A stretch of 64,000 nt of DNA, taken from the NCBI GenBank assembly GCA_963816145.1, contig CAWFJP010000003.1, forward strand, positions 839,848 through 903,847, given 5' to 3'. Within the stretch, counting starts at the first letter, position 1; each line of letters begins with the position of its first letter. Below, piece after piece: positions 32,853-64,000 of the stretch. Under the pieces are notes generated by a model. That model made no database searches. It was not told where the DNA came from and saw only the letters and a list, made by a program, of their open reading frames with translations. The position numbers were made by a program, and so were the translations under genes. The stretch comes from an uncultured delta proteobacterium. Its GTDB lineage: Bacteria; Desulfobacterota; Binatia; UBA9968.

Positions 32853-33857
32853 ATGGCCAATTTACCCAGAGTTGCGTTGATTTTAACCGGCGGCACCATC
32901 GACTCGGTGGGCAAGGACCGTCTCGATCTCGCTTGGTACATCGAAGCGGGCAAGCGTTTGAACGACGGCGAGCTGCTCCAGCAGTTGCCCGAGCTCAAGG
33001 AGATCGCGCAAGTCGAGGAACTGCCGTTCCGCCGCCTGCCGAGCCACGCGCTGGTGGACAAAGACTGGCTCGATCTGGTGCGCACCATCGACAAAATCTT
33101 CGACGAAGACAAAGCCGACGGCATTGTCATCACCCACGGCACCAACACCATCGAAGAAACCGCCTACTTTTTAAATCTCGTGCTCAAGACCGATAAGCCG
33201 GTGGTCGTCGTCGGCTCTATGCGGCCGTCGTCGGCGATCAGCGCGGACGGTTATTTGAATCTCGTGAACGCGGTGAAAGTCGCCGCCGACCCGAGTTCCC
33301 GCGGCCGCGGCTGTTTGCTGGTGATGAACGATACGATTTTCAACGGCCGCGACGTGACCAAAAACGCCACCTATCGAGTGGAAGCTTTTCAGTCGCGCGA
33401 CTTGGGTCCGCTCGGCTTCGCCGACGGCGACGGCAAGATCGTCTACTACCACACGCCGGTGCGCAAGCACACGACGGCTACCGAGTTCGACGTGCGCAAT
33501 TTGGAATCGCTGCCGCGCGTCGACATGGTGCTTTCCTACGTCGGCGCCGACGGGACTATGATCGAGGCGGCGGCCAAAGCCGGCGCCAAGGGGATCGTCA
33601 GCGCCGGCACCGGCGCCGGCCGGCCGACGCCGGCGGAAGATGCCGCCTTCGATAAATGTTTCAAGGAAACCGGCATGCTCATGTGCTTATGCAGCCGCGT
33701 CGCCTCCGGCCGGGTCGTGCGCAGCCCGGGATTGCAGCGGCGCGGTTTTGTCGCCGGCGACAACCTGCAGCCCTGGAAAGCGCGCTTGCTGCTCGCCCTG
33801 GCGTTGACCAAGACTACCAACCCCGACGAGATCCAGCGCATGATCGATACTTACTAA
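32853..33857 (+). CDS. L-asparaginase family protein
   Basis: LTGGTI, ITHGTNTIEETAY, GSMRP, SADG, VTK, GTGAG, KARLLL. Confidence 0.88.
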   Translation: MANLPRVALILTGGTIDSVGKDRLDLAWYIEAGKRLNDGELLQQLPELKEIAQVEELPFRRLPSHALVDKDWLDLVRTIDKIFDEDKADGIVITHGTNTIEETAYFLNLVLKTDKPVVVVGSMRPSSAISADGYLNLVNAVKVAADPSSRGRGCLLVMNDTIFNGRDVTKNATYRVEAFQSRDLGPLGFADGDGKIVYYHTPVRKHTTATEFDVRNLESLPRVDMVLSYVGADGTMIEAAAKAGAKGIVSAGTGAGRPTPAEDAAFDKCFKETGMLMCLCSRVASGRVVRSPGLQRRGFVAGDNLQPWKARLLLALALTKTTNPDEIQRMIDTY

Positions 33858-33881
33858 TCCCGCCTCTCCGCCGTTGCTGTT

Positions 33882-33953
33882 TGTAACTTGAAGCATAATG
33901 TTGCCGAAATGGCAGCATTATGCTTCCAAGTTTTCTCGGCAACATTATGCTTT
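33882..33953 (+). repeat. Tn7-like end, copy 1 (putative TnsB-binding sites)
   Basis: TGTAACTT then GAAGCATAATGTTGCC (33890-33905); inverted copies at 33911-33926 and 33938-33953. Confidence 0.65.
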
Positions 33954-34517
33954 CCAGAATCGAGTTCAAATATTCTCGGCGGGCGCAACAGGCTGAAATC
34001 ACAAACAATTGTTTTGATTTAACTTTGCACTCCACAGCGCCGCGGACCATAGGGTCGAGATCCCACCGGCTGTGTGATCATCGACCACCGGACGTTTCCG
34101 GCCGGAGAAAGCGCAGGGCTAGAGAAGGCAAACCCTTTGCGGGTCAGCTTACTGAGTACCGCTCGGCATATTCTTTTGGCTCGACCTCGGTTGGAACGGT
34201 TATCCGAGTAGTGGACCTCACTTCAGCTCACGCAATCGACTTGACCGATTATAATGATTGGTAACACGGTTAACTGAGGTAGTTCACAAGCCTGCGGGCT
34301 AATGTTGGCGATCTTCTGATTTGCCGGATTGATTATTCGTGTCGGTGGAAACTAGAAGGGGTCTTCGCATCTCTTCGCATTCTCAGCGATTCGTATTCTA
34401 GTTAGTTTTGACAACCTGTGACCTAGTCGACGACAAATTTGACATTTTTACATCCTATCCAAGAGAGATTCTCTGTGTTTCCTCGTCGCCCCACTCGCTT
34501 TCTGGCTGGCACCTATC

Positions 34518-34532
34518 TGGCATCTTGATTGC
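34518..34532 (+). promoter_or_regulatory. Sigma-54 (-24/-12) promoter candidate
   Basis: TGGCATCTTGATTGC = GG-N10-GC. Confidence 0.45.
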
Positions 34533-34770
34533 TGTTAGTTTTCTGTAGTTCACCGTCAGGAGGGAAGCAATGCCAAAAATCGTAAAGGAGCCATTCGCCC
34601 CAAAGAGACGATTTTTGAACCTCCATAAAACTCGCATCCGTGGTGGCGTGGACTTTTTGCCAACATTTCTCTGAATTTCTTGAAAGCTTAATCCTGGTGA
34701 GATGATCCGAGAGCGCAATGATGATTGCCGGTAACTGCCGCAAACAAATTTGAAGGAGAGGGGCGAGACA

Positions 34771-34917
34771 ATGAACGCCGAAATGGACGATGGGTGTACG
34801 TGTCCACGATGTCACGACCACATTCCAGCGCAGTTCTACTGCCGTCATTGCGGCTACCTGCCGGACTGGCGGCAGAGGGCGTCCGAGAAGCACGAGATAC
34901 GCAAGGAAGCGGCGTAG
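34771..34917 (+). CDS. 48-aa zinc-ribbon microprotein (not in ORF track)
   Basis: RBS aaggagagggg; MNAEMDDGCTCPRCHDHIPAQFYCRHCGYLPDW...; CxxC...CxxC. Confidence 0.65.
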   Translation: MNAEMDDGCTCPRCHDHIPAQFYCRHCGYLPDWRQRASEKHEIRKEAA

Positions 34918-35215
34918 ACGCGAGCTAGTTAACGAGCAACGAAATGTTGAAACTGAAAGCTGAACGTATGCGGAAAGCAAAGGAGGAAGACCTGAAAGAA
35001 AAAGCTGAGCGTCTGTGGAAAGCTGGTCAAGTATAACTTTCTTCATGGAAAGAAGGACCATCCCCACCGCCGAGGCGCCTCGCGTGCGACCCGCCCCAAT
35101 CGCCGGCCCACTCGCGTCACCAAGCAGTTATGTCGATCGAGTGAGCGCTGATAGTTCTGCGAAGCTACGCCTTCGATACTGATACGACCCTAGTGACTAT
35201 TCCCTTATTCAGGAG

Positions 35216-35449
35216 CTAATCGGTAACAATCAGGCACGGCAGCGGGGATTCTTCGCCAAAGTCGAGCAAGTCTTTTGCCGTTTCTAAGTCGACGACAGCA
35301 TAATTGTCTTCTGGGCCATCTACAACTACACAACACGCCGGATCCTTGCTATCGAGTCCACGGTTGACTTCGCGGCAGGCGGCAAGCGCTTCCCCTTCAG
35401 TGTCGAAAAATTCACAAAAATCCATCATGGGTTCAGTATATTTTTTCAT
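35216..35449 (-). CDS. 77-aa acidic Cys-containing hypothetical protein, copy 1
   Basis: Three diverged copies keep frame and length; motif VVDGPEDNYAVVD. Confidence 0.75.
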   Translation of the reverse strand: MKKYTEPMMDFCEFFDTEGEALAACREVNRGLDSKDPACCVVVDGPEDNYAVVDLETAKDLLDFGEESPLPCLIVTD

Positions 35450-35518
35450 GACATGGGACGCGATTTGACTGCTTTCTTTTTTGAAGAGGGCTTACGCCTT
35501 AAATAAAGATTTGACCCC
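35216..35518 (-). mobile_element. ~303-bp GGGGTCA-ended module, copy 1
   Basis: Shared with 36348-36650 and 37546-37848; similarity runs from GGGGTCAAATC to the ORF stop codon. Confidence 0.65.
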
Positions 35519-35664
35519 ACTCCTCCGTCTGACCCCACTCCTCCGTCGTTGCGATCTCCACATCGCATGAGACCAAAGGATGGTCTCAGCCCCACCGGCA
35601 AACGCTAATGGACGATATTTTCTAAGAACTGAAGAAATGATTTAAGGAAAATTTCTTAACACTA

Positions 35665-35700
35665 AAAAGCCGCCAGACCCCTCGCGGGACGTGGCGGCTT
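35665..35700 (-). terminator. Rho-independent terminator of the basic protein gene
   Basis: aagccgcca...tggcggctt stem followed by a T-run on the minus strand. Confidence 0.6.
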
Positions 35701-35725
35701 AGTTGAATCAGAAGTTAGCCCCGGA

Positions 35726-36058
35726 TTACTTCTTGCCGGCTTTCTTCGCCGCCCAGTAAGCCTTCAATTTGGCCGACAACTTCGCTCTGGTCGCCGAACT
35801 AAATGTTTTCTTCTTGGCCTTCGTAGTGGGTTTGACTGGTTGCGTTGCTGGTTTAGCTCGTCGCAAGTTCGCCGATCTTGCTTTTTGAGCTACCGCAATT
35901 TTCTTTTTTGTGGCGGCGCTCATAGTCCGCTTTGACACAGCTCCGGATTTGGCAGACCCACCGAGGATACTACGGAGCTCGTTGTTCAGAGCCTCGATTT
36001 GTTCTTTGATCGCGGTAGCGCGTTTGAGTTGGGTAATTGTAAGGTCAAATAAATTCAT
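35726..36058 (-). CDS. Small Lys/Ala-rich basic protein (histone-like/nucleoid-associated candidate)
   Basis: N-terminal coiled coil plus two repeats MSAATKKKIA..QKAR / FSSATRAKLS..LKAYWA. Confidence 0.7.
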   Translation of the reverse strand: MNLFDLTITQLKRATAIKEQIEALNNELRSILGGSAKSGAVSKRTMSAATKKKIAVAQKARSANLRRAKPATQPVKPTTKAKKKTFSSATRAKLSAKLKAYWAAKKAGKK

Positions 36059-36347
36059 GGGGTCACTTAACATTCAAAGCCGCTGGAAATCAAGCACCGG
36101 CCAGATTCAAACAATACCGTCGCAAAAAGTGTATGCCTTTGTCAAAATTGATGGTGGAACAGATAGCATTCTCAGGTGTTTTTTTTAGTTTTTCACGTGT
36201 CGATTACGAATAACGAGCATGCAGATAGCTTTTATCGCAGCGCGAACAGGATGAGCGGAAATTGAATCGGCCAAGCAGGTTTTTCGCTTGGATTCATAAT
36301 TCAAGAAGGATTGTTAATAACTCGGGGCATACCTAGGATCGCAGTAG

Positions 36348-36581
36348 CTAATCGGTAACAATCAAGCACGACAGCGGGGAGTCTTCGCCATAGTCGAGCA
36401 AGTCCTTTGCCGTATCCCAGTCGACGACAGCGTAATTGTTTTCCGGGCCGTCCACGACCACAGAACACCCCGGGTCCTTGCTGTTCAGTCCGCGATTGAC
36501 GTCACGGCAGGCGGCAATCGCTTCCTCTTCCGTGTCGAAACATTCACAATAATCCATCATGGGTTCAGTACGCTTTTTCAT
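36348..36581 (-). CDS. 77-aa hypothetical protein, copy 2
   Basis: Homologous to 35216-35449. Confidence 0.75.
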   Translation of the reverse strand: MKKRTEPMMDYCECFDTEEEAIAACRDVNRGLNSKDPGCSVVVDGPENNYAVVDWDTAKDLLDYGEDSPLSCLIVTD

Positions 36582-36650
36582 GACATGGGAAGCGATTTGA
36601 CTGCTTTCTTTTTTGAAGAGGGCTTACGCCTTAGATAAAGATTTGACCCC
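36348..36650 (-). mobile_element. ~303-bp GGGGTCA-ended module, copy 2
   Basis: Ends in ...AGATAAAGATTTGACCCC at 36650. Confidence 0.65.
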
Positions 36651-36665
36651 AATTCCGCAATTCCG

Positions 36666-37254
36666 CGCGGTGAAAGTCGCCGCCGACCCGAGTTCCCGCG
36701 GCCGCGGCTGTTTGCTGGTGATGAACGATACGATTTTCAACGGCCGCGACGTGACCAAAAACGCCACCTATCGAGTGGAAGCTTTTCAGTCGCGCGACTT
36801 GGGTCCGCTCGGCTTCGCCGACGGCGATGGCAAGATCGTCTACTACCACACGCCGGTGCGCAAGCACACGACGGCGACCGAGTTCGACGTGCGCAATTTG
36901 GAATCGCTGCCGCGCGTCGACATGGTGCTTTCCTACGTCGGCGCCGACGGGACTATGATCGAGGCGGCGGCCAAAGCCGGCGCCAAGGGGATCGTCAGCG
37001 CCGGCACCGGCGCCGGCCGGCCGACGCCGGCGGAAGATGCCGCCTTCGATAAATGTTTCAAGGAAACCGGCATGCTCATGTGCTTATGCAGCCGCGTCGC
37101 CTCCGGCCGGGTCGTGCGCAGCCCTGGACTGCAACGGCGCGGCTTCGTCGCCGGCGACAACCTGCAGCCCTGGAAAGCGCGCTTGCTGCTCGCGCTTGCG
37201 TTGACCAAGACCACCAACCCCGACGAGATCCAGCGCATGATCGATACTTACTAA
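36666..37254 (+). pseudogene. Duplicated 3' part of the asparaginase gene (no native start)
   Basis: Matches 33269-33857 with only synonymous differences. Confidence 0.9.
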
Positions 37255-37279
37255 TCCCGCCTCTCCGCCGCTGCTGTTG

Positions 37280-37351
37280 TGTAACTTGAAGCATAATGTT
37301 GCCGAAATGGCAGCACTATGCTTCCAAGTTTTCTCGGCAACATTATGCTTT
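37280..37351 (+). repeat. Tn7-like end, copy 2
   Basis: Same TGTAACTTGAAGCATAATGTTGCC end, 25 bp after the duplicated stop codon. Confidence 0.65.
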
Positions 37352-37545
37352 CCAGAATCGAGTTCAAATAATCTCGGCGGGCGCAACAGGCTGAAATCAC
37401 AAACAAATTTTTCGAACGTGTACGTATCTCTTATCCTACGTGAATAGGTTCAGCGAAAATCAAATCAGTCAAACCGATGATTCGGTTGGATTCATACGTC
37501 GGGAAAGATAGTCGATAATCAAGGCCGGGCGCCGGCATGCGGTGA

Positions 37546-37779
37546 CTAATCGGTAACAATCAGGCACTGCAGCTGGGATTTTTCGCCGAAGTCGAGCAGG
37601 TCTTTTGCTGCTTCTAAATCGACAACAGCGTAGTTGTCTTCCGGGCCATCCACGACTGCACAGCATGCCGGGTCCTTGCTGTTCAGTCCGTGATTGACTT
37701 CGCGGCAGGCGGCAATCGCTTCCTCTTCAGTGTCGAAAAATTCACAAAAATCCATCATGGGTTCAGTATACTGTTTCAT
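37546..37779 (-). CDS. 77-aa hypothetical protein, copy 3
   Basis: Homologous to 35216-35449. Confidence 0.75.
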   Translation of the reverse strand: MKQYTEPMMDFCEFFDTEEEAIAACREVNHGLNSKDPACCAVVDGPEDNYAVVDLEAAKDLLDFGEKSQLQCLIVTD

Positions 37780-37848
37780 GACATTGATAAAGATCTGACT
37801 GCGTTCTTTTTTGAAGAGGGCTTACGCCTTAGATAATGATTTGACCCC
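37546..37848 (-). mobile_element. ~303-bp GGGGTCA-ended module, copy 3
   Basis: Ends in ...AGATAATGATTTGACCCC at 37848. Confidence 0.65.
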
Positions 37849-37891
37849 TTCTCCCCCCTCCCTCTAAACCGAGCACACCGAAATAATCAGC

Positions 37892-39508
37892 CTAATATCG
37901 CTTTAATTTCCGACGCATCTCATTGACGGGAATCTTAGAAATGGCCACGCGATAGCCATACCCGATTAGACGGTTGCAAGCTGCCCGCAAATTCAAACGC
38001 GAAAAGAACGGTATCGTTAACGCTGTAGCTTTAGTGTCACTGACAATCGCGAAAACCACCTGATATTCGTCGCGGTCAGGGACTTTTCGTGGATCGAGTA
38101 TTTTGTGCGTGTCTGGCAAGGTTTCATTCACTATTCGACGAAAGGCTGCCTGTGTATGAAACAACTCACCCGACACCGCGCCCTGCGCAAAGAAATGACT
38201 AAACACTTTTGATTGTCCGTACCGTTTTACATGAATAATATCCTTGCTATTTGTATAGACGTCGCAGAATTCGATCCCGCTACGCGGACCACCGTAACGT
38301 ATGAGCCGTTTATCCATAAGAGCTAAAGTTTGGGGATTCTCGCTACAGACACGCTCGTTATAGCTTCCCTCCGAGCTGTCATCGTAGTGAGGTAGATTGA
38401 CCGAGTAACGCGGCAATTGAGCAAAGTATTTATTGACGTCATCGACAAAATTTCGGTCAACACGGTACCACTTACCGCTGCTAAGCAGATACATTTGACC
38501 ATCGTGATCAATTTCACAGTACAGACAGTTATATAATGACCATTTACGTATAATCTGTTCATCATCTCCTATGCACCGCACGCTTCGATTCTTAAAGACA
38601 GTAAGATTAATTTTCGATACGCTTCCCGAGAGGTCTTTGAATTCGTCGATAAAATCAGGAAGGTGCAAGTCGTGATATTTGGCGTTTTTTGCCATGAGGC
38701 CAAACCTGAATCCATCGACCTCCGACCAGTCGATTATGTCGGGGACGGCAAACCAACAACGATCGAGTTTTTCCGAACGTATATCTTCAACCATTTTATT
38801 GTTTAATACGTCTTGGAGTGAACTTCCCTTGATTTCAGAAATGTGATCAACCCAAGGAAATGTCTTCTTATAATAACTTGCGCCAGACTGGTCGAGGTGT
38901 TTCTTTAGCAGAGCAGGCAAGTCCTCAAGCGTAATCCGTACGGAAGATCTTAGTGCGTCCATGCCCGTTAAGCGGTCTCCGAGTGATCTGTCATTCGGGG
39001 TTCCAGTTACTGCACGGACAAGATCTTGTTCAACGTCGAAGCCAAATTCCTGTGGAGACGCCTCTTTACTCGATTGCACTCTCGAATGTGTCGTGAGCGC
39101 ATCGAACGTACTTTTGTCTATTGTTTTAATCTGGTCCTGGTCGATCGAGTTTAGTACGGCGAGCAAACCGTAACGCTCTTCCCAAGAATCCTGGTCGAGA
39201 ATGAATCGACCGCTTTGACCAAACGTAACCGCAAAAATCCGTTTGTCGACAGGTACGAATAATACGGCTCCCGCAGCATGATTTTCGCCGAGAAACTCCG
39301 CGTTAACATGATCTTCAAGGAATACACCCCATCTTGGCGGATGAGGGGACATCCGGCGAACATATAGCTCGCACTTACACCCGTTCCGCAGTGTCAAATT
39401 TTTATGTTTCAAGTACTTGCGATTGGAATGAATCGGAAGGGGTGTGCCGCGTTCTTCTTTGATTAAGTAAGCCGTAATCGTGATTTGTCGTGGTGGACCG
39501 GGAGGCAT
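37892..39508 (-). CDS. DUF6119 / TIGR04141 sporadically distributed protein
   Basis: AYLIK, FAVTFG, LVRAVTG, FPWVDHI, GKWYRV, IEFCD, IHVK, SHFFAQG, IPFFSR. Confidence 0.75.
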   Translation of the reverse strand: MPPGPPRQITITAYLIKEERGTPLPIHSNRKYLKHKNLTLRNGCKCELYVRRMSPHPPRWGVFLEDHVNAEFLGENHAAGAVLFVPVDKRIFAVTFGQSGRFILDQDSWEERYGLLAVLNSIDQDQIKTIDKSTFDALTTHSRVQSSKEASPQEFGFDVEQDLVRAVTGTPNDRSLGDRLTGMDALRSSVRITLEDLPALLKKHLDQSGASYYKKTFPWVDHISEIKGSSLQDVLNNKMVEDIRSEKLDRCWFAVPDIIDWSEVDGFRFGLMAKNAKYHDLHLPDFIDEFKDLSGSVSKINLTVFKNRSVRCIGDDEQIIRKWSLYNCLYCEIDHDGQMYLLSSGKWYRVDRNFVDDVNKYFAQLPRYSVNLPHYDDSSEGSYNERVCSENPQTLALMDKRLIRYGGPRSGIEFCDVYTNSKDIIHVKRYGQSKVFSHFFAQGAVSGELFHTQAAFRRIVNETLPDTHKILDPRKVPDRDEYQVVFAIVSDTKATALTIPFFSRLNLRAACNRLIGYGYRVAISKIPVNEMRRKLKRY

Positions 39509-39528
39509 GAAGACTAACCGCTTGTCTG

Positions 39529-42514
39529 TTAGTAGTACTGCCGAATATACCCGTAGGCCTTGTCGAACAGCTCCTGGTCCGTGTGCAGTTTGTATTTGAG
39601 AAGTGTTCGGCGCAGTTCCTTCTGCACTAAACGCTCGCCCTGCGTGGTGTGCTGCCAGTCGGGAAAGCGGACCTTCTTCACGATGTCGTCGATGTCCGCG
39701 ACGATGCGCTCGACGATGATGTGCGTGTTTGTGTTTTTGGCTTCGTTAAAGAGTTCGGTCAGCGCTTCCTTCGCCCGGTCCCGCTCTTCGACGGGATTGA
39801 CGTCTTTCTCAGCCTCAACAACTTCCTTCGCCAGTTCGAGCATCTGTTTCAGGAACTCCAAGCTCGTCAGAAATCCTTGCTCGTGACGCTCTTTGATTCT
39901 CTCCAAGCGTTCGCCCAGGGCGGTGAACTTTGGATTGCCGAGATGTTTCCGCAGGCGGGCGATCAGTTTGATTTCGATTTCTTTGCCGCGCTTCGCCGGG
40001 ATCAATCTCCTTTAGGAAGTCTTCGAGCACCTGCGCGTCGAGCACGAGGGTTTCGATGTCGTCGCGAATGGACTCGACATGGACATTCTCGTTGATCAGT
40101 TCGATCGTTTTCGCGCCCAGCGCGTGCCAGAGCAGCTTGCCGTTGCCGCTCGGCGGTTTGACCGATTCATACACTTGGGTCAGCCAGCGATAGTCGGTCT
40201 CGGTAGCGGACTCAGGCACGGGTCGGGTGACAGCGCCTCCCAGATGTGTCCGAGCACGGAATACTCCGCCGCGAACTTATCCCGCACTTCGTTGTTCGGC
40301 AGGCATTGCTGCGCCGCCATCAGACCTTCGTAGCCGCCCACGGTTCGATCGACGCCAGGGAAGAACGCCAGACATGTCTGCATCTTCACCGGCAATATCT
40401 TGCGCAGCTCATCGATATTGGAGACCACCATGCTGCACCGACTTTCTCGTCAAAGTCCAGCGCCTGCGCCACGTCGTCGAAGATGCCGATGTAGTCCACG
40501 ATCAGACCGTGGGTCTTCTCCTGGCCGATAGGTGCGGTTGGTGCGGCAGATGGCCTGGAGCAGGTTGTGATCGCGCATCGGCTTGTCCAGATACATCGCC
40601 TGCAAGATCGGCGCGTCGAAGCCGGTCAGCAGCTTCGCCGTGACGATCACGAACTTTAGCGGGTCGGCCGGGTCGCGGAAACGGTCGAGCAGCTTCTCTT
40701 CGGCGTCCTTGTCGCGGCTGTGAGCTTTCCACTCGGCTGGATCGCCCGGAGCGGTCGACATGACGATGGCGCTGGCTTCCGGGCCCGATCAGTTCGTCCA
40801 TCACCGCTTTGTAGAGCACGCAGCATTCGCGGTCGAACGTCACCACCTGGGCCTTGAAGCCGTTCGGCTCTACCTTCGTCTGGAAGTGCTTGACGATGTG
40901 CTTCACGACGGCCCGGACGCGCTCGGGGTTCTTCACCAGCACGGCCATCTTGGCGGCGCGCTTGGCGAGGTCGTCGCGGTCCTGCTCGCTCAAGTTGCCG
41001 GTGATTTGCCTGTAGGCTTCGTCGATGGCCGCCTTGTCGATCTTCAGCTTCACTTCCGGCGCTTCGAAGTGCAGCGGCAGCGTCGCCTTGTCGCGGATGG
41101 ATTCCTGGAACGAGTAGCGGCTCATGTAGCCCTTCTCGTCCTCGTCCGCGCCGAAGGCCCAGAAGGTATTGTTGTCGGCGCGGTTGATCGGCGTGCCGGT
41201 GAGGCCGAAGAGAAACGCATTCGGCAACGCCTCGCGCATCTTGCGGCCGAGGTCGCCTTCCTGCGTGCGATGCGCTTCGTCCACCATCACGATGATGTTC
41301 GAGCGCTCGTTCAGCCTGCCGTCCGCCTCGCCGAACTTGTGGATGGTGGTGATGAGCACCTTGCGCACGTCCTGCGCCAGCAACGTCTGCAACTCCTGCC
41401 GCGTCGCCACGCCGACCATGTTCGGCACGTCGGCGGCGTTGAAGGTGGCGGTGATCTGCGTGTCGAGGTCGATGCGGTCCACCACGATCATCACCGTCGG
41501 GTTGCCGAGCTTCGGGTGCATCCGCAGCTTCTGCGCGGCGAAGACCATCAGCAGCGACTTGCCGCTGCCCTGAAAATGCCAGATGAGCCCCTTCTTCGGG
41601 TAGCCCTTCACCACGCGCTCGACGATCTGGTTCGTGGTGAAATACTGCTGGTAACGGCAGATGATCTTGATGCGGCGGTGCTTCTTGTCCGTGGCGAAGA
41701 GCGTGAAGTTTTGCAGGATGTCCAGCACCACCTCGGGCCGCAGCATGCTCGTGACCGACGGCTTTGACGTGGTGCAGTTGACCTTCCTCCTGGTTCTCCT
41801 CGTCGCGCCACGGACCCCACATGTCGATCGGCATCCGGATCGAGCCGTAGCGGAACAGCTTGCCCTTCGGTGGCAAAGGAGAAAACGTTCGGCACGAACA
41901 TCGCCGGCACTTGCTTCTCGTAAATCTCGTTGACCTGGAACGCGCCATCGAACCAGGTCACCGCGCTGCGCGTCGGCGTCTTGGCCTCGCCGATGACCAC
42001 CGGCAGACCGTTGACCAGGAAGACCACGTCGAACCGCTTCTCCACCGGCCCGCCTGGTACGTCCACTGGTTGGCAGACCGTGAGTCGGTTGTTCGCCGGG
42101 CTCGTCGGCGTCCACCAGCCGCACGTGCACGTGCTCGCCGTTGGGGCCGAAGGGCATCGTCTTCTCGCCGCGCAGCCAGGCCATGAAGTTCTCGTTGGCC
42201 CGCACCAGTCCGTCGGCTCTGCACGGAGAGCAGGATGGCCCGCAGCTTGTAGATCACCTCGTCGGCGCGGTCGGGCTGGGCGGCGATTTCGGGGTTGAGC
42301 CGGATCAGCGCCTCGCGCACCCACGATTCCACCATCACGTCGCTGGTCTGACGCGGAAGTCTGGGGCGGGCACGTAGTCCCAACGGTCGGACGCAACTCG
42401 CCGCGAGCGATCGACCCAGCCGGCGGATTTCGCGACGATCACGACTCAACGGCTGCGTTCGCTGACAGCATCGAGAATCATCTGCTCGACGGTGTTGGAT
42501 TCGGTGAAGCTCAT
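39529..42514 (-). CDS. hsdR: Type I restriction endonuclease subunit R (multiple frameshifts)
   Basis: [10 protein letters not shown] start; [49 protein letters not shown] spread over shifted frames. Confidence 0.85.
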
Positions 42515-43732
42515 GCAAATCGAACCTGCGTTGACAACTAGCGTCATGAATTGCCGATTGCCTACAAGCACTGTCGATATCAGATTGCTTGCGCAGTCAA
42601 TTCGTCGAAGTCGCAATCGTCCTCAATCTGCACGCTGTTTCAGATCGGTGGAGACAGGCATGGAATCCTTCCATTGACTTACGTCCGAGTTCACGATGCT
42701 GTAGATGTCGCCTGTAGCGATGTCGACGACAGCACTTTGCCGAAGTAAGCTGGATCGAAACAGCGAAGCAGAGATACTCGGTGAATCACGATCTGCATCG
42801 AGGCAGCTGAATCAGCGTAAGTATACGGAATCAGCAGTCGTGCAATCTTCGCCACGAGATGACGCGTACCGCCAACCAATCTGCGCTTCTCCATCTTCAG
42901 TATCAGCACGATCTCCGCCTTTCGCGAAGCGCGATATCGTTCTGCGATAGTCACGTTGCCGAAGTCATCTGCTGCAAGATCGAGATCTATCGATTGACAT
43001 CTCCACTTGCGATACACTCAGTATACTGTCCGTAACTTCACCAGTATCGCGTCTCTCTGCGTGCGGCGTTGAATCTGTCCATTGGCAACGTTCGCGACCT
43101 CACGCATCCGACGTGCCAGCACTGCTGGCGCTCGTCTTGTCACGGATCGAAAATGAGCGCAGTCATGCGAGCGATCAGCGATTGCGCAGTCTCGGGCTGC
43201 ATTGCTGCATTGCAAGACCATCGTCCACCGCCCAGAGGATTTCGGCGATGCGGCGCTGCTGGTCGAGCGGCGGCAGGGCGAACTCGAAGCTGGCGAGACT
43301 GCTCCAGTTGGTGCGCGGCGAGAGCGAACCGGCGGAAGTCCCGACCGCGTGCTGAAAGAACCGCTCCGAGAGGCAGAGGAACGGCAGGAGTTCCGGCAGC
43401 AGCCGGTCGCCCTTGGGCGCGAGCACGTAAATGTCGCCGGACACCACCGCGTCGAACTCCGCCACGGCCACCTTGCGCTGATAGGCGCGGCGCTTGCCGA
43501 AGAGCACCTGCCCCGGCCGGCAGCGCCGCGTGAACGTCGTGCCGTCCGCCACGTTGCCCCACGCCCGGATGTGCAGCGACCCGGGTTCAAGATGCTCCAG
43601 CCCGATGAACCGCTCCAGCCCGGCCTCGGCCGGATTGCACTCCGTCTCGTTGACATTCTCCACCACATCGCCGAACCGAACCGGTGCCGTTCCAGCCTTG
43701 TCGTTCAGAGCGGGAGTTCGCCCAACTGGCAT
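42511..43732 (-). CDS. hsdS: Type I RM specificity subunit S (3' half garbled)
   Basis: VRFGDVV, FIGLEHL, GQVLFGKRRAYQRK, LPPLDQQRRIAEIL; lies between hsdM and hsdR. Confidence 0.75.
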
Positions 43733-43745
43733 CGGTGCCGCGCAG

Positions 43746-45271
43746 TCAAGCTTTCACGTTACTGGCGCGATGCTGGCTTCCGGCAGAACGTCGTCGCAAG
43801 GCGTTCAGCGACTGTCGATCGCGAGACTTCAGCCAGCCGATTCCAACGTGCACCAGCCAAGCCTGAGGTTGCTCTTCCACTTCGACCGTGCCGTTGCTCG
43901 TCGGCGGCGCGACGTAGAGCGGAATGCTGAGGTTGCCGTCCTTGGCGCGGATTTCCTCCAGCGTGACGACGCGGGTGAAGCCCGGCTTCGTCCTTGAACT
44001 TCTCGTAGGCTGCGACGATGCGCTCGATGTGGTCGTCGGTGAGAAAGCTCTGGGCGCGCTCGCGGGTGACTTCGTTGACGGCGTTGATGAACAGGATCTT
44101 GCCCTTGCGCGCCTTGGGCTTGGCCGTCCGGCAGATGACGACGCAGGCTTCCATCGGCGAGTTGTAGAACAGGTTCGGCCCGAGGCCGAGCACGCATTCG
44201 ATGAGGTCGGCTTCGATGAGCTTGCGCCGCATCTCCGCCTCTTCCTGGCGGAAGAGCACGCCGTGCGGGAAGAGGATGGCGCAGCGGCCGGTCTTGGGCG
44301 TGAGGCTGCACAGGATGTGCTGCCAGAAGGCGTAGTCGGCGCGGCCCTGCGGCGGCGTGCCGTAGAGGTTGCGGCCCCACGGGTCGGAGGCGAAGGCGTC
44401 GCGGTCCCACTGCTTGATGGAGTAGGGCGGATTGGCCAGCACCACGTCGAAGCGCATGCAGGCGATCGCCCTGCGACGAACTTCGGCTCGGCCAGCGTGT
44501 CGCCGCGCACGATCTGGAAATCCTCGATGCCGTGCAGGAAGCAGTTCATCCGGGCGATGGAGGAGGTCATCAGGTTGCGCTCCTGCCCGTAGAGGCGGAC
44601 GTTGCGCCATTCCTTGCCTCTGTCGGCGCAGGTGCGCGATGCAGGAGAGCAGCATGCCGCCGGAGCCGCAGGTCGGGTCGTAGATGGATTCGCCCGGCTG
44701 CGGCTCCAGCATCTCGGTCATCAGATGGACGACGGTGCGGTTGGTGTAGAACTCGGCGGCGGTGTGGCCGGAGTCGTCGGCGAATTTCTTGATCAGGTAT
44801 TCGTAGCCCTGGCCCAGTTCGTCCTCGGGCAGGTTGGCGACGGTCAGTTCGAGCGAGCTGAAGTGCTCGATCAGGTCGCGCAGCATGGCGTCGGACAGGC
44901 GGTCCTTGTTGGTCCACTGCGCGTCGCCGAAGATGCCGTAGAGCTTGTCGGGGTTGGCGGTCTCGATGGCGCGCATGGCGGCCTGGAGCGCCGGCCGACG
45001 TTCTTGGCCGACCTGCCGCACCTCGCGCCAATGGGCCTCCGGCGGAATCTGGAAGCGGTGGTTCTCCGGGATAGAGCGCGAACTGCTGGTCGCCGCCGGA
45101 TTCCGCCAGCGCGGTCTGCGTCTCCTCGTCGAACACGTCGCACAGGCGCTTGTAGAACAGCAGCGGGAAGATGAACTGCTTGTAGTCGCCGGCGTCGATG
45201 GTGCCGCGCAGGAGCACGGCCGCGCCCCAGAGGTAGGATTCGAGTTGTTGTTGGGTGATGCGGGCGCTCAT
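43746..45271 (-). CDS. hsdM: Type I RM methyltransferase M2 (NPPY; putative m4C), frameshifted
   Basis: LESYLWGAA, AEFYT, YDPTCGSGGML, VVLANPPYS. Confidence 0.85.
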
Positions 45272-46778
45272 CGCAGCAGTCCCTCGCGTTTGAGGATGGC
45301 GATGAGCTTGTCCTCGGCCGCGAAGGCCGCCTGCGGCGCTGTCCTGCAGCCGCTTCATCGCCTCGTCCACGGTCAGTCGTCTCCTGCTCGACCTTCGGCT
45401 CGACGTAGCGCGGGATGTTCAGGTTGTAGTCGTTGGCGGCGATCTCGTCCAGCGTGACCACGCGGGCGACGCCTTCCACATCCTTGTAGTCGCGATACCA
45501 GCCGTAGATGCGCTCGACGTGCTCGGGCAGCAGTTCGTTCTGGGCGCGGCCAGTCTTGAACTCCTTCGAGGCGTCGAGGATGAGCACCTTATTCTTGCGG
45601 TCCTTGCGCCTTGCGCTGGCGGAAGACCAGGATGCAGGCGGCCAGGCCGGTGCCGTAGAACAGATTCGGGCCGAGGCCGATGACGGCTTCGAGCAGGTCC
45701 ATGCCGAGGATCTTCTGCCGGATCTCGCCTTCGCGCCCATGCGGAAGAGCGCGCCGTGCGGCAGCACGACGGCCATGCGCCCGGTCTTGGGCGCCATGGA
45801 CTTGATCATGTGCTGCACCCAGGCGTAGTCGCCGCTCTTGGCCGGCGGCATGCCGGCGAAGTTGCGGCCGTAGGGATCGCTGGCCCAGACCTCGTCGCCC
45901 CACTTCTCCAGCGAGAACGGCGGATTGGCGATGACGCAATCGAAGGTGGCGAGGTTGTCGCCCGGAAAGAACGCCGGATTGCGCAGCGTGTCGCCGCGCA
46001 CGACCTGGAAATCCGCCGCGCCGTGCAGGAAGAGGTTCATGCGGGCGATGGCGGAGGTGGTGAGGTTCTTTTCCTGGCCGAAGAGCTTGCCCCAGAGCGT
46101 GCGGTCGTCGCCGTGGTTCTCCTGCACGTGGTGAATGGCTTCGAGCAACATGCCGCCGGTGCCGCAGGCCGGGTCGTAGATGGACTCGCCTTCGCTGCGG
46201 ATCGAGGATGTTCACCATCAGCCGCACCACGGAGCGCGGCGTGTAGAACTCGCCGGCCTTCTTGTTGGTGGCGTCGGCGAACTTCTTGATCAGGTATTCG
46301 TAGGACTGGCCGAGGATGTCGGCCTGCGCCGCCTGGTTGCCCAGCGCGATGCGCGAGAAGTGCTCGATCAGGTCGCGCAGCAGCGCATCGGAGAGGCGGT
46401 CTTTGTTGGTCCACTGGGCGTCGCCGAAGATGCCGTAGAGCGTTTCCGGGTTCGCCTTCTCGATGCCACGCATGGCCGTCTGCAGCGCCTGGCCGACATT
46501 GGTCGTCACCGCCCGCACGTCGCCCCAGTGGCAATCTTCCGGAATCTGGAAGCGGTAGTTCTGCGGGAAACAGCGCGTATTCCTCGTCGCCACCGGACTC
46601 CGTCCAGCGCGGCCTGGTATTCCTCGTCATGCACGTCGGAGATGCGCTTGAAGAACAGCAGCGGGAAGACGTAGGTCTTGAAGTCCGCCGCATCCACCGG
46701 CCCGCGCAGGATGTTGGCGGCTTCCCACAGGTGGGATTCGAGTTGCTGCAGGGTGAATTGAGAAGTCTCGGGGACCAT
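45268..46778 (-). CDS. hsdM: Type I RM methyltransferase M1 (NPPF; putative m6A), frameshifted
   Basis: LESHLWEAA, AGEFYTP, CVIANPPFS, VLPHGALFR, YNLNIPRYV. Confidence 0.85.
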
Positions 46779-47524
46779 CTAAAATGCAGACCCTGCTGCA
46801 GCGCTAGTTATCGAATTAGGGACACGGAATAACGCAATTCCTTAACCCTGACCGGTCAAGCAAGGTCGTTCGACTTTGCTTGGCTACGCTCCGGTCAGGC
46901 GCTCCGCTCAAAACGTAAAATTGCTCGGGGATGAGTCGGCCAAAATCCTTTTCACTTTACTGGAATCGGCGGGGAGGTGGCAAGGGCACTTGCAATCTTT
47001 CGTGGGTGTCGGCGGTCTCGTTCCAATAGTTCCAGTCGTTCCACAGCTTCCAGCGGCAGCTTTTAATCGTTCAAAGATTGGAATCTCGAGATTCGGGCGG
47101 GATGACAGCCGGACTCTGAAAGAGATAAGATATCGTGATCGTGGAGAGAAAATGTAGTGATCGCTTCGCTCCGTTGTGACTCCGTTCAAAAATTGAACCG
47201 CTACAAGGCAGAGCTTACACAACAGGTCCACTGACTGAATCGCCTGTGAGGCATTACGTTTTCTAGATCTCGTGAACCTTCGTGATTAGCGGTGATGACT
47301 AGGGTCTTGGGGCCACTTCGTGTGGTGAATTATCGACCGCCGGTCGAACACGTGATAGCCTAACGGAGACTGAAAACTACACGACTATTGAGGATTTTCG
47401 AATATCAGCTTGCTCTAGAACCCCAACCACCAACCCAAACGGATTTTTCTGCGCTCTTGCAACATGCTGGCGCGTGACTCGATACTGAAAAGGTTTTCTC
47501 TCGGTTTCGTCCGGCCGACGTAGG

Positions 47525-48425
47525 TTATCCGTTCCCTGAAAAGTCTATAAACTCGTGGCATTGGAGTTGACTATTTCTCAATACAGATTCTTTTTTTTTT
47601 TTTGGTTTGGTTTTCTGAGCCGCTATATCCACCTCTTTCTTTGCTCTTTGCCACGTCTCCCGTAACTCCGGGTCGCGAAAGTCCGTCGTGCTTTTAAGCA
47701 GACCTTGAACCCTTTTTGCACTCGGGTATATCCCTTGATCGCTAAGGTCGCTGACGATGGTTTTAATTTGCTGACAAATTTCCTGTCTTCTTTGTCGTTT
47801 CCTCGCCTGCACGTATTCATAATATCGAATCGCGATAGAAGAGCATTGTGCCGGGAAGTAACGACGCAGGGCATCGTCATGGCATCCCAGCCGCATCGCG
47901 ACTTGATTTACGGACGGCGGTGGAAACTCGGCTCCCGCAGCGAATCTTTCAACGCGAGCCTTAATCTTCGCAATCCGGAGCTTTATTCGTCGAGACGACA
48001 GGTATGAGCTAGCACGCAGAGTGCTGCCAGGAACGGTCATAAGTTTCTGAGGATTTTCGAAACTTTCGTCGCCCATAAGCAGTGCCTTAAGCGATACGCC
48101 GAGGCTAAAGGAAAGGCGTAACAAAATGTCGATATTCGGCAGAGACCCCCTTCGAGCCCATGATTGGAGAACTCGCGGACTTACCTTGAGAATCTCACTT
48201 AATCGCAAATAGGAGTTACCTCCGACAAACGCCAAACAAGCCATCAGTCCAGCCAGGCCCCTTTTTCTGCTCACAGAAAAGCCCCTGGGCAAACTAGGGC
48301 GCTGTGCTGATCAACTCACCAACCGACGTTGCTACCCAGCCATGCCATTTGAGCCTTGCCAAATCCCCTTTGCAATCTTATCTTGCCGGATCGAACTCTT
48401 ACCCAAGTCAGACCGGCATTTACCG
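47525..48425 (-). pseudogene. tniQ: TniQ/TnsD-family target-selector remnant (C-terminal part)
   Basis: Shifted-frame KCRSDLG and WHGWVATSVGELI pieces, then HTH (LQSWARRGSLP), PPPSVNQVAMRLG, RRYFP, GIYPSAKRV, as recalled for long TniQ/TnsD proteins. Confidence 0.6.
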
Positions 48426-48468
48426 TGAGATTCCTGTTGAAGGAGTTCTCAAAGTCTCAGCGGGTTCA

Positions 48469-49635
48469 TTAGACTGAAGGCTGAGTGGGAATCTGATACA
48501 ATCGCGCGCAATTGTCCCAAAGAATCTTTCGTTTTGAATCGTTGTTCACCCCCTCGATCGCCAGAAACGACTCCGTAGCGCGAGGGAACAAGCTGTCGTC
48601 ATGCGGATAGTCCGTCGAAACGACGATCCGGTCGTCGCCGATCTCATCAATTACTACTTTGAGGGCGTTCTCGTCGGGATCCGTGGCGATAAAGCACTGC
48701 CGAAAAAAATATTCGCTCGGCTTTGCGGAAAGTTTTACACCACATCCCGGTCCAAACTTTTCCCATTGCTCATCGAGGTGCTCAAGCCACCATGGAAGCC
48801 ATCCGCAGGTGCTTTCGAGAATGGCAACAGTGAGTTTTGGATGTCTCTCCAACACGCCGCCCATGGACAGACTAGCGTAACCCATCATGCTTTCGAGCGG
48901 ATTGCGCACCGCGTGGGAAATCGGCCCGCTGGCGGGATGGTTCATAAAACGACGGGTGACGTCATCCCGTAGTGACGAGACCCCCGTGGGATGAAGCCCG
49001 AGCGGGACCCCTAACCGCTCAAGCTCGGTCCAGAGCGGCTCAAAAATCGGATCGTGCATGTGCTGCCCGTTGATGGGGTGAGGGCTCGCTACCACGGCAA
49101 CAGCGCCGAGCTTTTCCACGGCGCGACGAGCTTCGTCAGCGGCCGATTCCGGATCGTGAAACGCCAATTGTGCCGCAAGCTTCAGCCGGGCCGGATTGTA
49201 CTGACAATAATCGTAAGCCCAGTCGTTATAAGCGCGCGCAAGGGCCAATGCGTACATCGGATCCAATTCGTCGTGACTCAATACTTGCCGTCCTCGCGTG
49301 CTATATAAAACTCCAACATCCACGCCCTCTATATCCATGGCTTCCACATGGGTCTGAGGATCGAAGCCATTTTCAATCGCTCGAGCATAGTGTGGGCTGC
49401 GAGCGTGGGCTCTTCGTTTCAGATCGCTTCGCACCTGGACCGCTTTGAGGTCAGTATGGAGAAATGGGCTTTCTCCGGAAGGGACCGTAACTGTCTTGCT
49501 CCGTGCTGGAAAAAGCGGATTGGGTGGGAATTGAGGTGCTTTCGGCTTCCATTTCTCATCCATATACCTTTGCCACAAATCGTCCGGCTCCATCATATGA
49601 AAATCACTATCCATCACGAAATAACCGTTCTTCAT
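48469..49635 (-). CDS. Amidohydrolase family protein
   Basis: MDSDFH, LGLHP, ILESTCGWLP, STDYPH, KILWDNCARLY. Confidence 0.88.
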   Translation of the reverse strand: MKNGYFVMDSDFHMMEPDDLWQRYMDEKWKPKAPQFPPNPLFPARSKTVTVPSGESPFLHTDLKAVQVRSDLKRRAHARSPHYARAIENGFDPQTHVEAMDIEGVDVGVLYSTRGRQVLSHDELDPMYALALARAYNDWAYDYCQYNPARLKLAAQLAFHDPESAADEARRAVEKLGAVAVVASPHPINGQHMHDPIFEPLWTELERLGVPLGLHPTGVSSLRDDVTRRFMNHPASGPISHAVRNPLESMMGYASLSMGGVLERHPKLTVAILESTCGWLPWWLEHLDEQWEKFGPGCGVKLSAKPSEYFFRQCFIATDPDENALKVVIDEIGDDRIVVSTDYPHDDSLFPRATESFLAIEGVNNDSKRKILWDNCARLYQIPTQPSV

Positions 49636-49657
49636 CTTCCGACCTCCATCTATGAGT

Positions 49658-50677: not shown

Positions 50678-50939
50678 TTTCGACTTCGTCCACCCTTTTC
50701 ATTTGGGGCCGCAATCCGTCGTAATACTTACAACACGGATAAACCACTGCGCGATATGACGTTTCGATAAAGGCGCCGACGCCACGAACAATAAAACTGG
50801 CCTGGACAATAGACTAGGTCGAAAGAGCAAGTCAAGGTTGTCGAAACTACCAGTTGTAGCAAAGTGAATCTGACAGGAGGGGTTAACAGCAATGTAATTG
50901 TGTCAGCGTGGTAGGACGACAACGTTGGACATACAAGTC

Positions 50940-51101
50940 GAGAACGGGTCGACGTCCGTCAACGAGTGTATCGCAGCGAGCTGCCGGTTTTTGAATCCGC
51001 TCAGTCACTGACTATCAGCGAACGGCCGTGTTACCGGCTCAAAGCCCGGGTGAACACGGCCGGAATCAAGGACGTGGCTCATGGCAACCGTGGACGGCCG
51101 C
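50940..51101 (+). pseudogene. ISNCY/IS1202-like transposase N-terminal remnant
   Basis: ERVDVRQRVYRSEL...ISERPCYRLKARV...AHGNRGRP HTH signature, then truncated. Confidence 0.5.
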
Positions 51102-51208
51102 GCTCGGGACCCCAACTAAGACTATCCCAATCAGAGCTCGGCGCTGTTGAATGCCATTCGAATCTCGGTCGTGACTAGACGCTGAATTAGCCAACAAAGC
51201 CCAACAAA

Positions 51209-51254
51209 AACAAGCCCCGAGCGCCTCTGTGAATGGAGGTTCTCGGGGCTTGTT
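51209..51254. terminator. Stem-loop, probable terminator downstream of the NRPS
   Basis: aacaagccccgag...ctcggggcttgtt with flanking A/T runs. Confidence 0.55.
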
Positions 51255-51453
51255 GCTTCTTGTAAGCGGACAAAAGGCGGACAGTCGGAACGTCGTCTAG
51301 GATTTGGTTGAAGGAAAAACCAAATCAGATCAATCTCAGCCTGCAGATGGAGGACATCGCCTGATTACCGACCCCGATCCAGCTTTATCTCTAACGCGGC
51401 TCGTCGTCGAGTCTCTCGGTAGATTGTACGCGGATAAACGCCTAAACGGCAAA

Positions 51454-63988: not shown

Positions 63989-64000
63989 TAAAGTGCTCGT

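What the first reader, a model, noticed from the sequence alone, without database searches (positions are those of the whole stretch)
32853..34008. Candidate new Tn7-like attachment site: insertion 24-25 bp downstream of an asparaginase gene
Seen: the accessory island starts with TGTAACTT followed at position 9 by a 16-bp site (GAAGCATAATGTTGCC) present three times. The TGT is 24 bp after the asparaginase stop; in the duplicated allele the same end is 25 bp after the stop (after ...CTGTT vs ...CTGTTG). Known: Tn7 ends are an 8-bp TGT terminus followed by TnsB sites, and TnsD directs insertion about 25 bp downstream of glmS. Inference: a TniQ/TnsD reads the 3' end of this asparaginase gene, and the 1-bp offset records two independent targeted insertions. 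I do not know of asparaginase as a described att site.
Basis: partly seen in the sequence, partly recalled or inferred. Interest (0 to 1): 0.85.

Follow-up and report, generated by a model that had tools for sequence, protein, structure and literature searches.

The report
Relic Tn7-like transposon beside asparaginase gene
The repeats just after this asparaginase gene are the end of a decayed, roughly 30-kb Tn7-type jumping element, and related bacteria carry the same kind of element at the same spot, which points to an insertion site not yet described for this transposon family.

Summary
TGTAACTT starts 24 nt after the asparaginase stop, followed by three copies of a 16-nt site (one forward, two inverted). 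A second copy lies 25 nt after a duplicated gene fragment.

It is a transposon end. The same termini bound a 6.5-kb autonomous element (L053) that encodes a TnsA-TnsB fusion transposase, TnsC and TnsD. These are close relatives of the solved type I-B2 CAST proteins. Mixed site orientation is a published hallmark of that TnsAB clade.

The partner end lies at the window/contig end, so the element spans about 30.2 kb. It holds no transposase, only a 5'-truncated TnsD relic (47525-48353) plus cargo.

In congeners the same end sits 22-29 nt after the stop, always in the same orientation and behind unrelated spacers. Other congeners have empty sites with ordinary terminators. This fits TnsD-type targeting of the conserved 3' end of the gene.

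No intact element was found at an asparaginase site. No cognate selector and no target-site duplication were found either.

The 1-bp offset lies inside a 749-bp duplicated block, so two independent insertions are not shown.

Verdict: new member of a known kind, with a probable new attachment site.

The parts
32853..33857 (+). Type II L-asparaginase gene, the presumed target gene
   Evidence: Pfam Asparaginase and Asparaginase_C. NCBIfam TIGR00520 at 331 bits, above its 314.3 cut-off.
33795..33857 (+). Conserved last ~60 nt of the gene, the candidate TnsD recognition region (inferred)
   Evidence: This is the only sequence near the insertion point that is conserved between occupied and empty genomes. 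The role is inferred by analogy with TnsD-glmS and TnsD-tRNA homing. It was not tested.
33858..33881 (.). 24-nt spacer between the stop codon and the transposon terminus
   Evidence: Its first 20 nt are homologous to the empty allele G022b. Spacers of other species are unrelated.
33882..34167 (+). Asparaginase-proximal (TnsD-side) transposon end, copy A. It has the terminus TGTAACTT, site 1 at 33890-33905(+), site 2 at 33911-33926(-) and site 3 at 33938-33953(-).
   Evidence: It is collinear with the TnsD-side ends of the autonomous elements L053, L068 and L069. Positions 33900-34167 recur at 97% at the end of contig C9.
36666..37254 (+). Duplicated 3' fragment of the asparaginase gene (aa 138-334)
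   Evidence: There are 10 differences in 589 nt, 8 of them in the last 90 nt.
37280..37415 (+). Proximal end, copy B (25-nt spacer)
47525..48353 (-). 5'-truncated TnsD (TniQ-family) relic, C-terminal DNA-binding half only
   Evidence: 28% identity over 174 aa to L053 TnsD residues 384-555, E 1e-22. 33% identity to L068 TnsD. PDB TnsD 8v32_J residues 262-460, E 8e-19. An extra short match upstream of the ORF. No TniQ Pfam domain in the genome.
63942..64000 (-). Inner part of the distal transposon end (sites at 63942 and 63973). The terminus lies about 117 nt beyond the window, on the end of contig C9.
   Evidence: The C3 end plus the reverse complement of the C9 end is collinear with the distal ends of G017 and G003, with a gap of at most 1 nt.
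33882..64000 (.). Body of the non-autonomous element (about 30.2 kb with the 117 nt beyond the window). Cargo: DUF6119 at 37892-39508, decayed type I R-M at 39529-46777, amidohydrolase at 48469-49722, NRPS at 51454-56643.
   Evidence: Pfam scans. No TnsAB or TnsC homologue by tblastn of the whole genome.

Best explanation
The TGT terminus and the three 16-nt sites are the target-proximal end of a Tn7-like transposon of the TnsAB-fusion clade. Intact relatives of this clade encode TnsAB, TnsC and TnsD. The window's copy runs from 33882 to about 117 nt past the window end, about 30.2 kb. It has lost its transposition genes except for a truncated TnsD relic, so it could move only if the proteins were supplied in trans. 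Past its distal terminus lies another proximal end that lacks its first 18 nt. This suggests an array of successive insertions.

Shown:
- the end architecture;
- the identity of the termini with those of an autonomous element;
- the partner end;
- occupied versus empty sites at a fixed distance and orientation.

Inferred: a TnsD-type selector bound the conserved last tens of nucleotides of the asparaginase coding sequence, recruited TnsC and TnsAB, and directed insertion 22-29 nt past the stop. This parallels TnsD at glmS and TnsD at tRNA genes. The end's hairpin plus T-run probably now also terminates asparaginase transcription.
For: (1) The sites are far above chance.

(2) The exact 21-nt terminus pattern found L053, a 6.5-kb element with inverted copies of the terminus. 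L053 encodes:
- a 937-aa protein with rve and Mu-transpos_C, aligned over residues 40-918 to the 898-aa chain 9bw1_M (E 0, 1099 bits);
- a TnsC (E 3e-113 to 8fcu_Q);
- a TnsD (E 4e-110 to 8v32_J).
PmcCAST TnsAB is 898 aa and is a natural TnsA-TnsB fusion (PMC11915506, passages read).

(3) The first ~48 nt of the window's end align collinearly with the TnsD-side ends of L053, L068 and L069: 8-nt terminus, forward site, 5 nt, inverted site. Sites in both orientations in one end are reported as special to the TnsAB clade (PMC9881144, passages read).

(4) The partner end is present.

(5) In the genus, the occupied sites are the window's genome (24 and 25 nt), G004 (22), G018 and G043 (23), G017 (24), G014 and G006 (26) and G003 (29). 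The same end always faces the stop. G473, in another genus, keeps a 12-nt relic at 22 nt. Empty sites with other sequence, several with GC-rich terminators, are G005, G007, G008, G011, G012, G016, G021, G022 and G045, plus 13 genomes of other genera.

(6) The empty allele G022b aligns with the window's left flank up to nt 20 after the stop. It also aligns with G003's flank beyond its distal terminus.

(7) Occupancy needs at least 5 changes on a tree of the asparaginase gene (8 occupied of 30 rows).

(8) Relatives insert at similar distances from a conserved determinant with the same end facing it: L069 lies 26 nt after tRNA-Leu. L053 and L068 lie 29-33 nt after NPPYG codons of DNA methylase genes.

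(9) A TnsD relic lies inside the island.
Against: - No intact element was seen at any asparaginase site. The ORFs scanned downstream in G003, G004, G014, G017 and G018 are cargo, apart from one HTH_Tnp_1 (IS-type transposase helix-turn-helix) hit in G014.
- TniQ Pfam was found in 0 of 31 genus genomes, although the control genomes did not ring either.
- L053 TnsAB was found in 0 of 123 genomes of the order.
- L053 TnsD was found in 2 of 401 genomes of a phylum sample: the window's relic and G073.
- No 5-bp duplication flanks the window's element, the G003 element or L053.
- G004, G014 and G018 keep only the proximal end within 20 kb.
- The TnsD relic lies 10-13 kb from the proximal ends with no end beside it. 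It is only 28-33% identical to the relatives' TnsD, so its target is unknown.
- The tree is a tree of the target gene, not of the species.
- A single old insertion with spacer decay and later losses is not excluded.
Confidence: 0.72

Rival explanations
1. There was one ancient insertion in an ancestor of the genus, inherited vertically and later eroded or deleted in some species. Under this reading the asparaginase 3' end is not a recurrently used attachment site. The constant distance only reflects common descent.
For: - No transposase of this clade in 123 genomes of the order.
- Most copies are one-ended relics.
- The spacers have diverged beyond alignment.
- No target-site duplications.
Against: - At least 5 state changes on the gene tree.
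- The nearest relative by this gene, G021, is empty and has an intact terminator hairpin.
- The empty allele G022b matches both flanks without a scar.
- The non-coding ends are more conserved than the gene: 91-94% against 85-87% for G004 and G017.
- One G017 terminus is 24 of 24 identical to that of L053.
- Arrays of a distal end abutting a proximal end occur in the window's genome and in G017:C12.
- A relic at the same distance occurs in another genus, G473.
Confidence: 0.15
2. The repeats are simply the intrinsic terminator or a regulatory hairpin of the asparaginase gene and have nothing to do with mobile DNA.
For: A 17-pair stem at 33890-33926 followed by CAAGTTTTCT was called terminator-like. 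The RNA fold is -40.8 kcal/mol with z -6.9, and none of 200 shuffles folded as well.
Against: - The repeats are absent from 9 congeners, which have other terminators.
- The same sequence bounds autonomous transposons in other phyla.
- In G017 and G018 site 1 is a variant that pairs poorly with site 2.
- A partner end exists 30 kb away.
- A secondary terminator role is compatible with the best explanation.
Confidence: 0.03
3. The site is an attachment site of a tyrosine or serine recombinase island that integrates into the 3' end of the asparaginase gene and duplicates it. The inverted pair of sites with a 5-nt spacer would be the recombinase core.
For: 3' fragments of the gene lie downstream of the full gene in the window's genome, G003, G006, G017 and G022. 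Further partial matches occur in G012, G043 and G490. The site pair resembles a recombinase core.
Against: - No integrase among the ORFs scanned in 30-64 kb. Small ORFs were not all scanned.
- The G022b fragment is followed by an empty site with no TGT end, so gene-end duplication and the TGT end are separable.
- The ends match TnsAB-type transposons.
- A second process that duplicates the gene end probably acts at this locus alongside the transposon.
Confidence: 0.05

Closest known systems
Tn7-like transposons of the TnsAB-fusion clade: backbones of type I-B2 (PmcCAST) and I-D (CyCAST, McCAST) CRISPR-associated transposons and their non-CRISPR cyanobacterial relatives
   Same: - The autonomous relative L053 carries the window's termini. 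Its proteins match the solved TnsAB, TnsC and TnsD strongly.
- Binding sites occur in both orientations within an end (PMC9881144).
- TnsD-directed homing a few tens of nt downstream of a conserved gene: 30-33 nt after tRNA-Leu for CyCAST (PMC10293859).
- L069 lies 26 nt after tRNA-Leu.
   Different: - The target here is a protein-coding gene (type II asparaginase), not a tRNA.
- No CRISPR module.
- The host genus is labelled delta-proteobacterial in one public record, not cyanobacterial.
- The window's copy lacks tnsAB and tnsC and keeps only a TnsD fragment.
Tn7 and its attTn7 site downstream of glmS (TnsD pathway)
   Same: Insertion occurs in one orientation about 25 bp past the stop codon of a conserved gene. 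The selector binds the end of the coding region (abstract of PMC2918618 seen in the listing; the 25-bp figure is recalled). The ends are TGT...ACA with several subterminal sites placed asymmetrically.
   Different: - TnsA and TnsB are separate proteins in Tn7.
- All TnsB sites of one Tn7 end point the same way (PMC9881144).
- The 5-bp duplication typical of Tn7 (recalled) was not found here.
Tn5469 (TnsAB clade, no cargo, one TniQ)
   Same: L053-type elements are likewise minimal, with TnsAB, TnsC, one TniQ-family gene and a small HTH gene. Tn5469 is described in PMC9881144.
   Different: Tn5469 is thought to insert without a specific site. The L053 and L068 insertions both lie just after NPPYG codons of methylase genes, which suggests targeting.

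Membership tests
Tn7-like transposon, TnsAB-fusion clade | Asymmetric ends with a short terminus (TGT...ACA) and several subterminal transposase-binding repeats | tested here: met
   The proximal end has 3 sites within 72 nt. The distal end has a terminal site plus 2 sites at about +145 and +176.
Tn7-like transposon, TnsAB-fusion clade | Binding sites in both orientations within one end (clade hallmark, PMC9881144) | tested here: met
   Site 1 is forward and sites 2 and 3 are inverted. The TnsD-side ends of L053, L068 and L069 show the same pattern for their first two sites.
Tn7-like transposon, TnsAB-fusion clade | TnsAB (DDE transposase fused to TnsA nuclease) encoded inside the element | tested here: not met
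   No hit in the window or the genome. TnsA_N Pfam gave 0 hits in the genome, with silent controls. TnsAB is present in L053, L066-L073 and L111, which have related ends.
Tn7-like transposon, TnsAB-fusion clade | TnsC AAA+ regulator encoded inside the element | tested here: not met
   No tblastn hit in the genome. Present in the relatives.
Tn7-like transposon, TnsAB-fusion clade | TniQ-family target selector (TnsD) | tested here: inconclusive
   Only the C-terminal half survives, at 47525-48353. The N-terminal TniQ domain is absent.
Tn7-like transposon, TnsAB-fusion clade | Site- and orientation-specific insertion at a fixed distance from a conserved sequence | tested here: met
   22-29 nt after the stop in 8 genus genomes, with the same end facing the gene. 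Empty sites occur in 9 congeners. The empty allele G022b matches both flanks.
Tn7-like transposon, TnsAB-fusion clade | 5-bp target-site duplication | tested here: not met
   The window has CTGTT|...|GTTGC, G003 has TATCA|...|ACGAG, and L053 has GACAA|...|GTAGG. The flanks may have been altered by later events.
Rho-independent terminator | Stem-loop plus T-run conserved downstream of the orthologous genes | tested here: not met
   A stem and T-run are present here. The sequence is absent from 9 congeners and from 13 genomes of other genera in the family.
Integrase-borne genomic island | Tyrosine or serine recombinase gene next to the att repeat | tested here: not met
   None among the 20 larger ORFs of 30-64 kb scanned with Pfam. 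ORFs under about 100 aa were mostly not scanned.

The most novel reading that the evidence does not exclude
The 3' end of type II asparaginase is a live, undescribed attachment site read by a TnsD variant, whose truncated relic survives at 47525-48353. Under this reading, the TnsAB clade, known mainly from cyanobacteria and tRNA sites, has selectors that have switched between tRNA genes, a metabolic gene, and the region just after the NPPY catalytic motif of DNA methyltransferase genes. The last of these would knock out restriction-modification genes on insertion. Successive insertions at the asparaginase site would then have built the main accessory and defence region of this genus: 30 kb here, plus a further array on contig C9.
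Probability: 0.35. Interest if true: 0.62.

Novelty: new member of a known kind. Interest (0 to 1): 0.5.

Why it matters
Tn7-like elements are valued because their selectors place large cargo at one predictable, harmless site. Each new selector and site pair widens that toolbox and explains where genomic islands form. Here the evidence points to a protein-coding attachment site not mentioned in the searched literature. It belongs to the clade that gave rise to type I-B2 and I-D CRISPR-associated transposons, and it occurs outside cyanobacteria. It also explains why the region after this asparaginase gene is a variable island hotspot in the genus. The weak point is that only relics sit at the site, so the selector that reads it remains to be found.

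Tried and rejected
- Looked for tns genes next to occupied sites in G003, G004, G014, G017 and G018 by Pfam. Only cargo was found, plus one HTH_Tnp_1 hit in G014.
- TniQ, TnsA_N and Mu-transpos_C family searches in the genome and genus. The one Mu-transpos_C hit, in G013, is a MuA/MuB-like pair at a contig end with unrelated ends.
- Searched 5 genomes for a second end with the 16-nt site. Nothing useful.
- Looked for a proximal end beside the TnsD relic. The score was at the shuffle level.
- The search for homologous proteins with the relic, longer proteins only, found nothing. The relic is unique in the genus.
- L053 TnsAB in 401 genomes of the class of its own genome: 2 of 401, one of them a pseudogene.
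- Of the 10 stretches, L055-L058 and L062 have only the terminus and look like chance. L054 (a cyanobacterium, mini-element of about 0.9 kb) and L060 (Ktedonobacter, proximal-type end) look real but were not pursued.
- G003's right flank has no match in the window's genome.
- I first called the family TnsA-less and thought of cointegrates as the source of the gene-fragment repeats. Searches showed a TnsA-TnsB fusion, so that idea is kept only as a weak possibility. PmcCAST is reported to form cointegrates (PMC9881144).
- Read laying showed no joints and no empty-site contigs in 4 runs. Uncovered parts are not evidence.
- G489 and G490 have an ambiguous TGCCAAATTGG 23 nt after the stop. They are counted neither as occupied nor as empty in the text, and as empty in the tree.
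- Supplementary tables of PMC8649781, PMC10293859 and PMC9881144 were closed. They may list attachment sites, including this one.
- Claims that use unpublished genomes: G005 and G485 are counted among the empty sites and are rows of the tree. No conclusion rests on them alone. G482 and G493 appear only in the tally.

Full report
**Observation.**
The asparaginase ORF (32853-33857, type II by NCBIfam) ends 24 nt before TGTAACTT (33882). A 16-nt site follows at 33890(+), 33911(-) and 33938(-). A second copy of the block follows a gene fragment (36666-37254) after 25 nt. The window holds eight matches with up to 3 mismatches, against 0.39 expected. In the whole genome, the near-exact copies lie only at these two places and at the ends of contigs C3 and C9. 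The window ends at the end of C3.

**What the repeats are.**
Congeners gave the first clue. In G004, G014, G017, G018, G043, and next to gene fragments in G003 and G006, a related TGT-terminus sits 22-29 nt after the stop. The spacers before it are unrelated. G005, G007, G008, G011, G012, G016, G021, G022 and G045 instead have quite different sequence there, several with GC-rich terminators.

A second, inverted end type (TGTAACTTTACCCATA..., with two more sites about 145 and 176 nt inside) was found in three places:
- in G003, 7.7 kb from its proximal end;
- in G017;
- on the last 117 nt of the window genome's contig C9.

The end of C3 (window 63942-64000) and the reverse complement of the C9 end together align collinearly with those distal ends, with a gap of at most 1 nt. 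The window's element therefore runs from 33882 to about 117 nt past the window, some 30.2 kb. Directly past its distal terminus lies a third copy of the proximal end that lacks its first 18 nt. In G017:C12 a distal terminus is followed after 5 nt by a proximal end. Both arrangements look like arrays of successive insertions.

**Family.**
An exact search with the 21-nt terminus found L053, a 7.3-kb contig with inverted termini 6.5 kb apart. Between them lie:
- a 937-aa protein with rve and Mu-transpos_C;
- an AAA_22/TniB protein;
- a TniQ-domain protein of 565 aa;
- a small HTH gene.

Against solved structures these match chain 9bw1_M (898 aa, E 0, aligned 40-918 to 7-882), TnsC 8fcu_Q (3e-113) and TnsD 8v32_J (4e-110). 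PmcCAST TnsAB is an 898-aa natural fusion of the TnsA nuclease and the TnsB transposase (PMC11915506, passages). The family is therefore the TnsAB clade of Tn7-like elements.

That clade is reported to sit mostly at tRNA sites recognised by a TnsD-like protein. It is also reported to have binding sites in both orientations within an end, unlike other Tn7-like families (PMC9881144, passages). This explains the one-forward, two-inverted arrangement. The first ~48 nt of the window's end align with the TnsD-side ends of L053, L068 and L069.

Fourteen metagenome loci encode relatives of L053 TnsAB at 41-100% identity.

**What is missing.**
The window's element has no TnsAB or TnsC. It keeps one relic. 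ORF 47525-48292(-), plus a short match upstream of it, aligns with the C-terminal half of TnsD. The N-terminal TniQ domain is gone, and no end lies beside the relic.

No tns genes were found next to any occupied asparaginase site examined. Wider searches gave:
- TniQ in 0 of 31 genus genomes, with controls silent;
- L053 TnsAB in 0 of 123 genomes of the order;
- L053 TnsD in 2 of 401 genomes of a phylum sample.

G004, G014 and G018 keep only the proximal end within 20 kb. No 5-bp duplication flanks the window's element, the G003 element or L053.

**Is the site targeted?**
Evidence for targeting:
- The distance (22-29 nt) and the orientation are constant across unrelated spacers.
- The last ~40 nt of the gene are the only conserved sequence nearby.
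- The empty allele G022b matches the window's left flank up to nt 20 after the stop, and also G003's flank beyond its distal terminus.
- At least 5 state changes are needed on the gene tree.
- The ends are better conserved than the gene.
- A 12-nt relic lies at 22 nt in another genus, G473.
- Relatives show the same geometry. L069 lies 26 nt after tRNA-Leu(CAG). L053 and L068 lie 29-33 nt after NPPYG codons of DNA methylase genes. CyCAST homing occurs 30-33 nt after tRNA-Leu (PMC10293859).

Evidence against: only relics are seen, the tree is a tree of the target gene, and no cognate selector is known. I put about 0.72 on a TnsD-type attachment site and 0.15 on a single old insertion.

**The 1-bp offset.**
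Copies A and B share 749 nt, from 33269 to 34017. The differences are:
- 10 in the 589 nt of gene, 8 of them in the last 90 nt;
- one substitution and the 1-nt indel in the spacer;
- 2 in 128 nt of the end.

The spacers are the same sequence. One insertion followed by duplication and a 1-nt indel is therefore the simpler reading. The mosaic divergence leaves room for an imported allele. Two independent insertions are not demonstrated.

Gene-end fragments also occur without any transposon end (G022b). Some other process therefore duplicates the gene end at this locus.

**Terminator.**
Sites 1 and 2 form a 17-pair hairpin followed by a T-run. This probably now ends asparaginase transcription. 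As the sole explanation it fails, because the sequence is absent from the empty sites and bounds transposons elsewhere.

**Literature.**
None of the Tn7-like papers listed contains the word asparaginase, and none of the 10 papers listed does. The 12 papers that hold both asparaginase and Tn7 are unrelated by title. The main texts of PMC10293859, PMC8649781 and PMC9881144 have no 'asparagin' and no 'methyltransferase'.

**Verdict.**
This is a real, decayed Tn7-like element of the TnsAB clade at a probable new attachment site. It is a new member of a known kind. Interest 0.5.

Noticed in passing
L053:7071-7328, L068:6014-6119, L066:1-583, L068:1-483: Autonomous relatives with the same termini sit inside DNA N6-adenine methyltransferase genes. 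The TnsD-side end lies 29-33 nt after the NPPYG codons in L053 and L068. The flanks at the other side of the element in L053 and L066, and upstream of tnsAB in L068 (where no distal end was found), are also methylase fragments. This may mean targeting of restriction-modification genes. The main texts searched do not mention it.
   Followed up: partly
L069:14935-15046: A relative with two TniQ-family genes (720 and 359 aa) lies 26 nt downstream of tRNA-Leu(CAG), the classical site type of this clade.
   Followed up: yes
window 36666-37254; G003:C2:180415-180702; G006:C206:6314-6466; G017:C2:242677-242808; G022:C106:3022-3252: 3' fragments of the asparaginase gene are repeated downstream of the full gene in several genomes. 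The G022 fragment has no transposon end after it. Some second process (an integrative element, homologous recombination or a cointegrate) duplicates the gene end.
   Followed up: partly
window 35216-35449, 36348-36581, 37546-37779 (all -); start of contig C2: A 77-aa ORF with its flanks (300-nt repeat, 86-88% identity) is present three times in 2.6 kb and again at a contig start. It has no Pfam or NCBIfam match.
   Followed up: partly
window 39529-46777: A decayed type I restriction-modification system inside the island. hsdR is split into pieces, and two hsdM copies lie in tandem with a period of about 1497 bp (75-92% identity). A DUF6119 gene at 37892-39508 lies beside it.
   Followed up: partly
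window 9991, 11329, 19514, 20568, 23347, 30330: A family of REP-like palindromes (CCTCCCCCGCG...CGCGGGGGAGG) lies between genes. There are also GTTCAAAC-rich repeats at 2058, 19440 and 30294-30421.
   Followed up: no
window 51454-56643 (-): A 1729-aa non-ribosomal peptide synthetase (A-T-C-A-T) is carried as cargo. PKS/NRPS genes are also cargo of the G003 element.
   Followed up: no
L054:4126-5018 (Cuspidothrix) and L060:1682 (Ktedonobacter): The same terminus bounds a mini-element of about 0.9 kb in a cyanobacterium and forms a proximal-type end in a Ktedonobacter genome. The end family therefore spans several phyla.
   Followed up: partly
G013:C213:20300-22424 (L052): A MuA-like C-terminus, a MuB-like AAA_22 ATPase and an HU-like gene lie at a contig end. 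This is the only Mu-transpos_C hit in the genus and is unrelated to the ends studied here.
   Followed up: partly
window 15934-16711 and 30654-31431: Paralogous cupin genes (73-77% nt identity) lie 14.7 kb apart. Other diverged segment pairs are at 14041/22255 and 10065/20648/23444.
   Followed up: no
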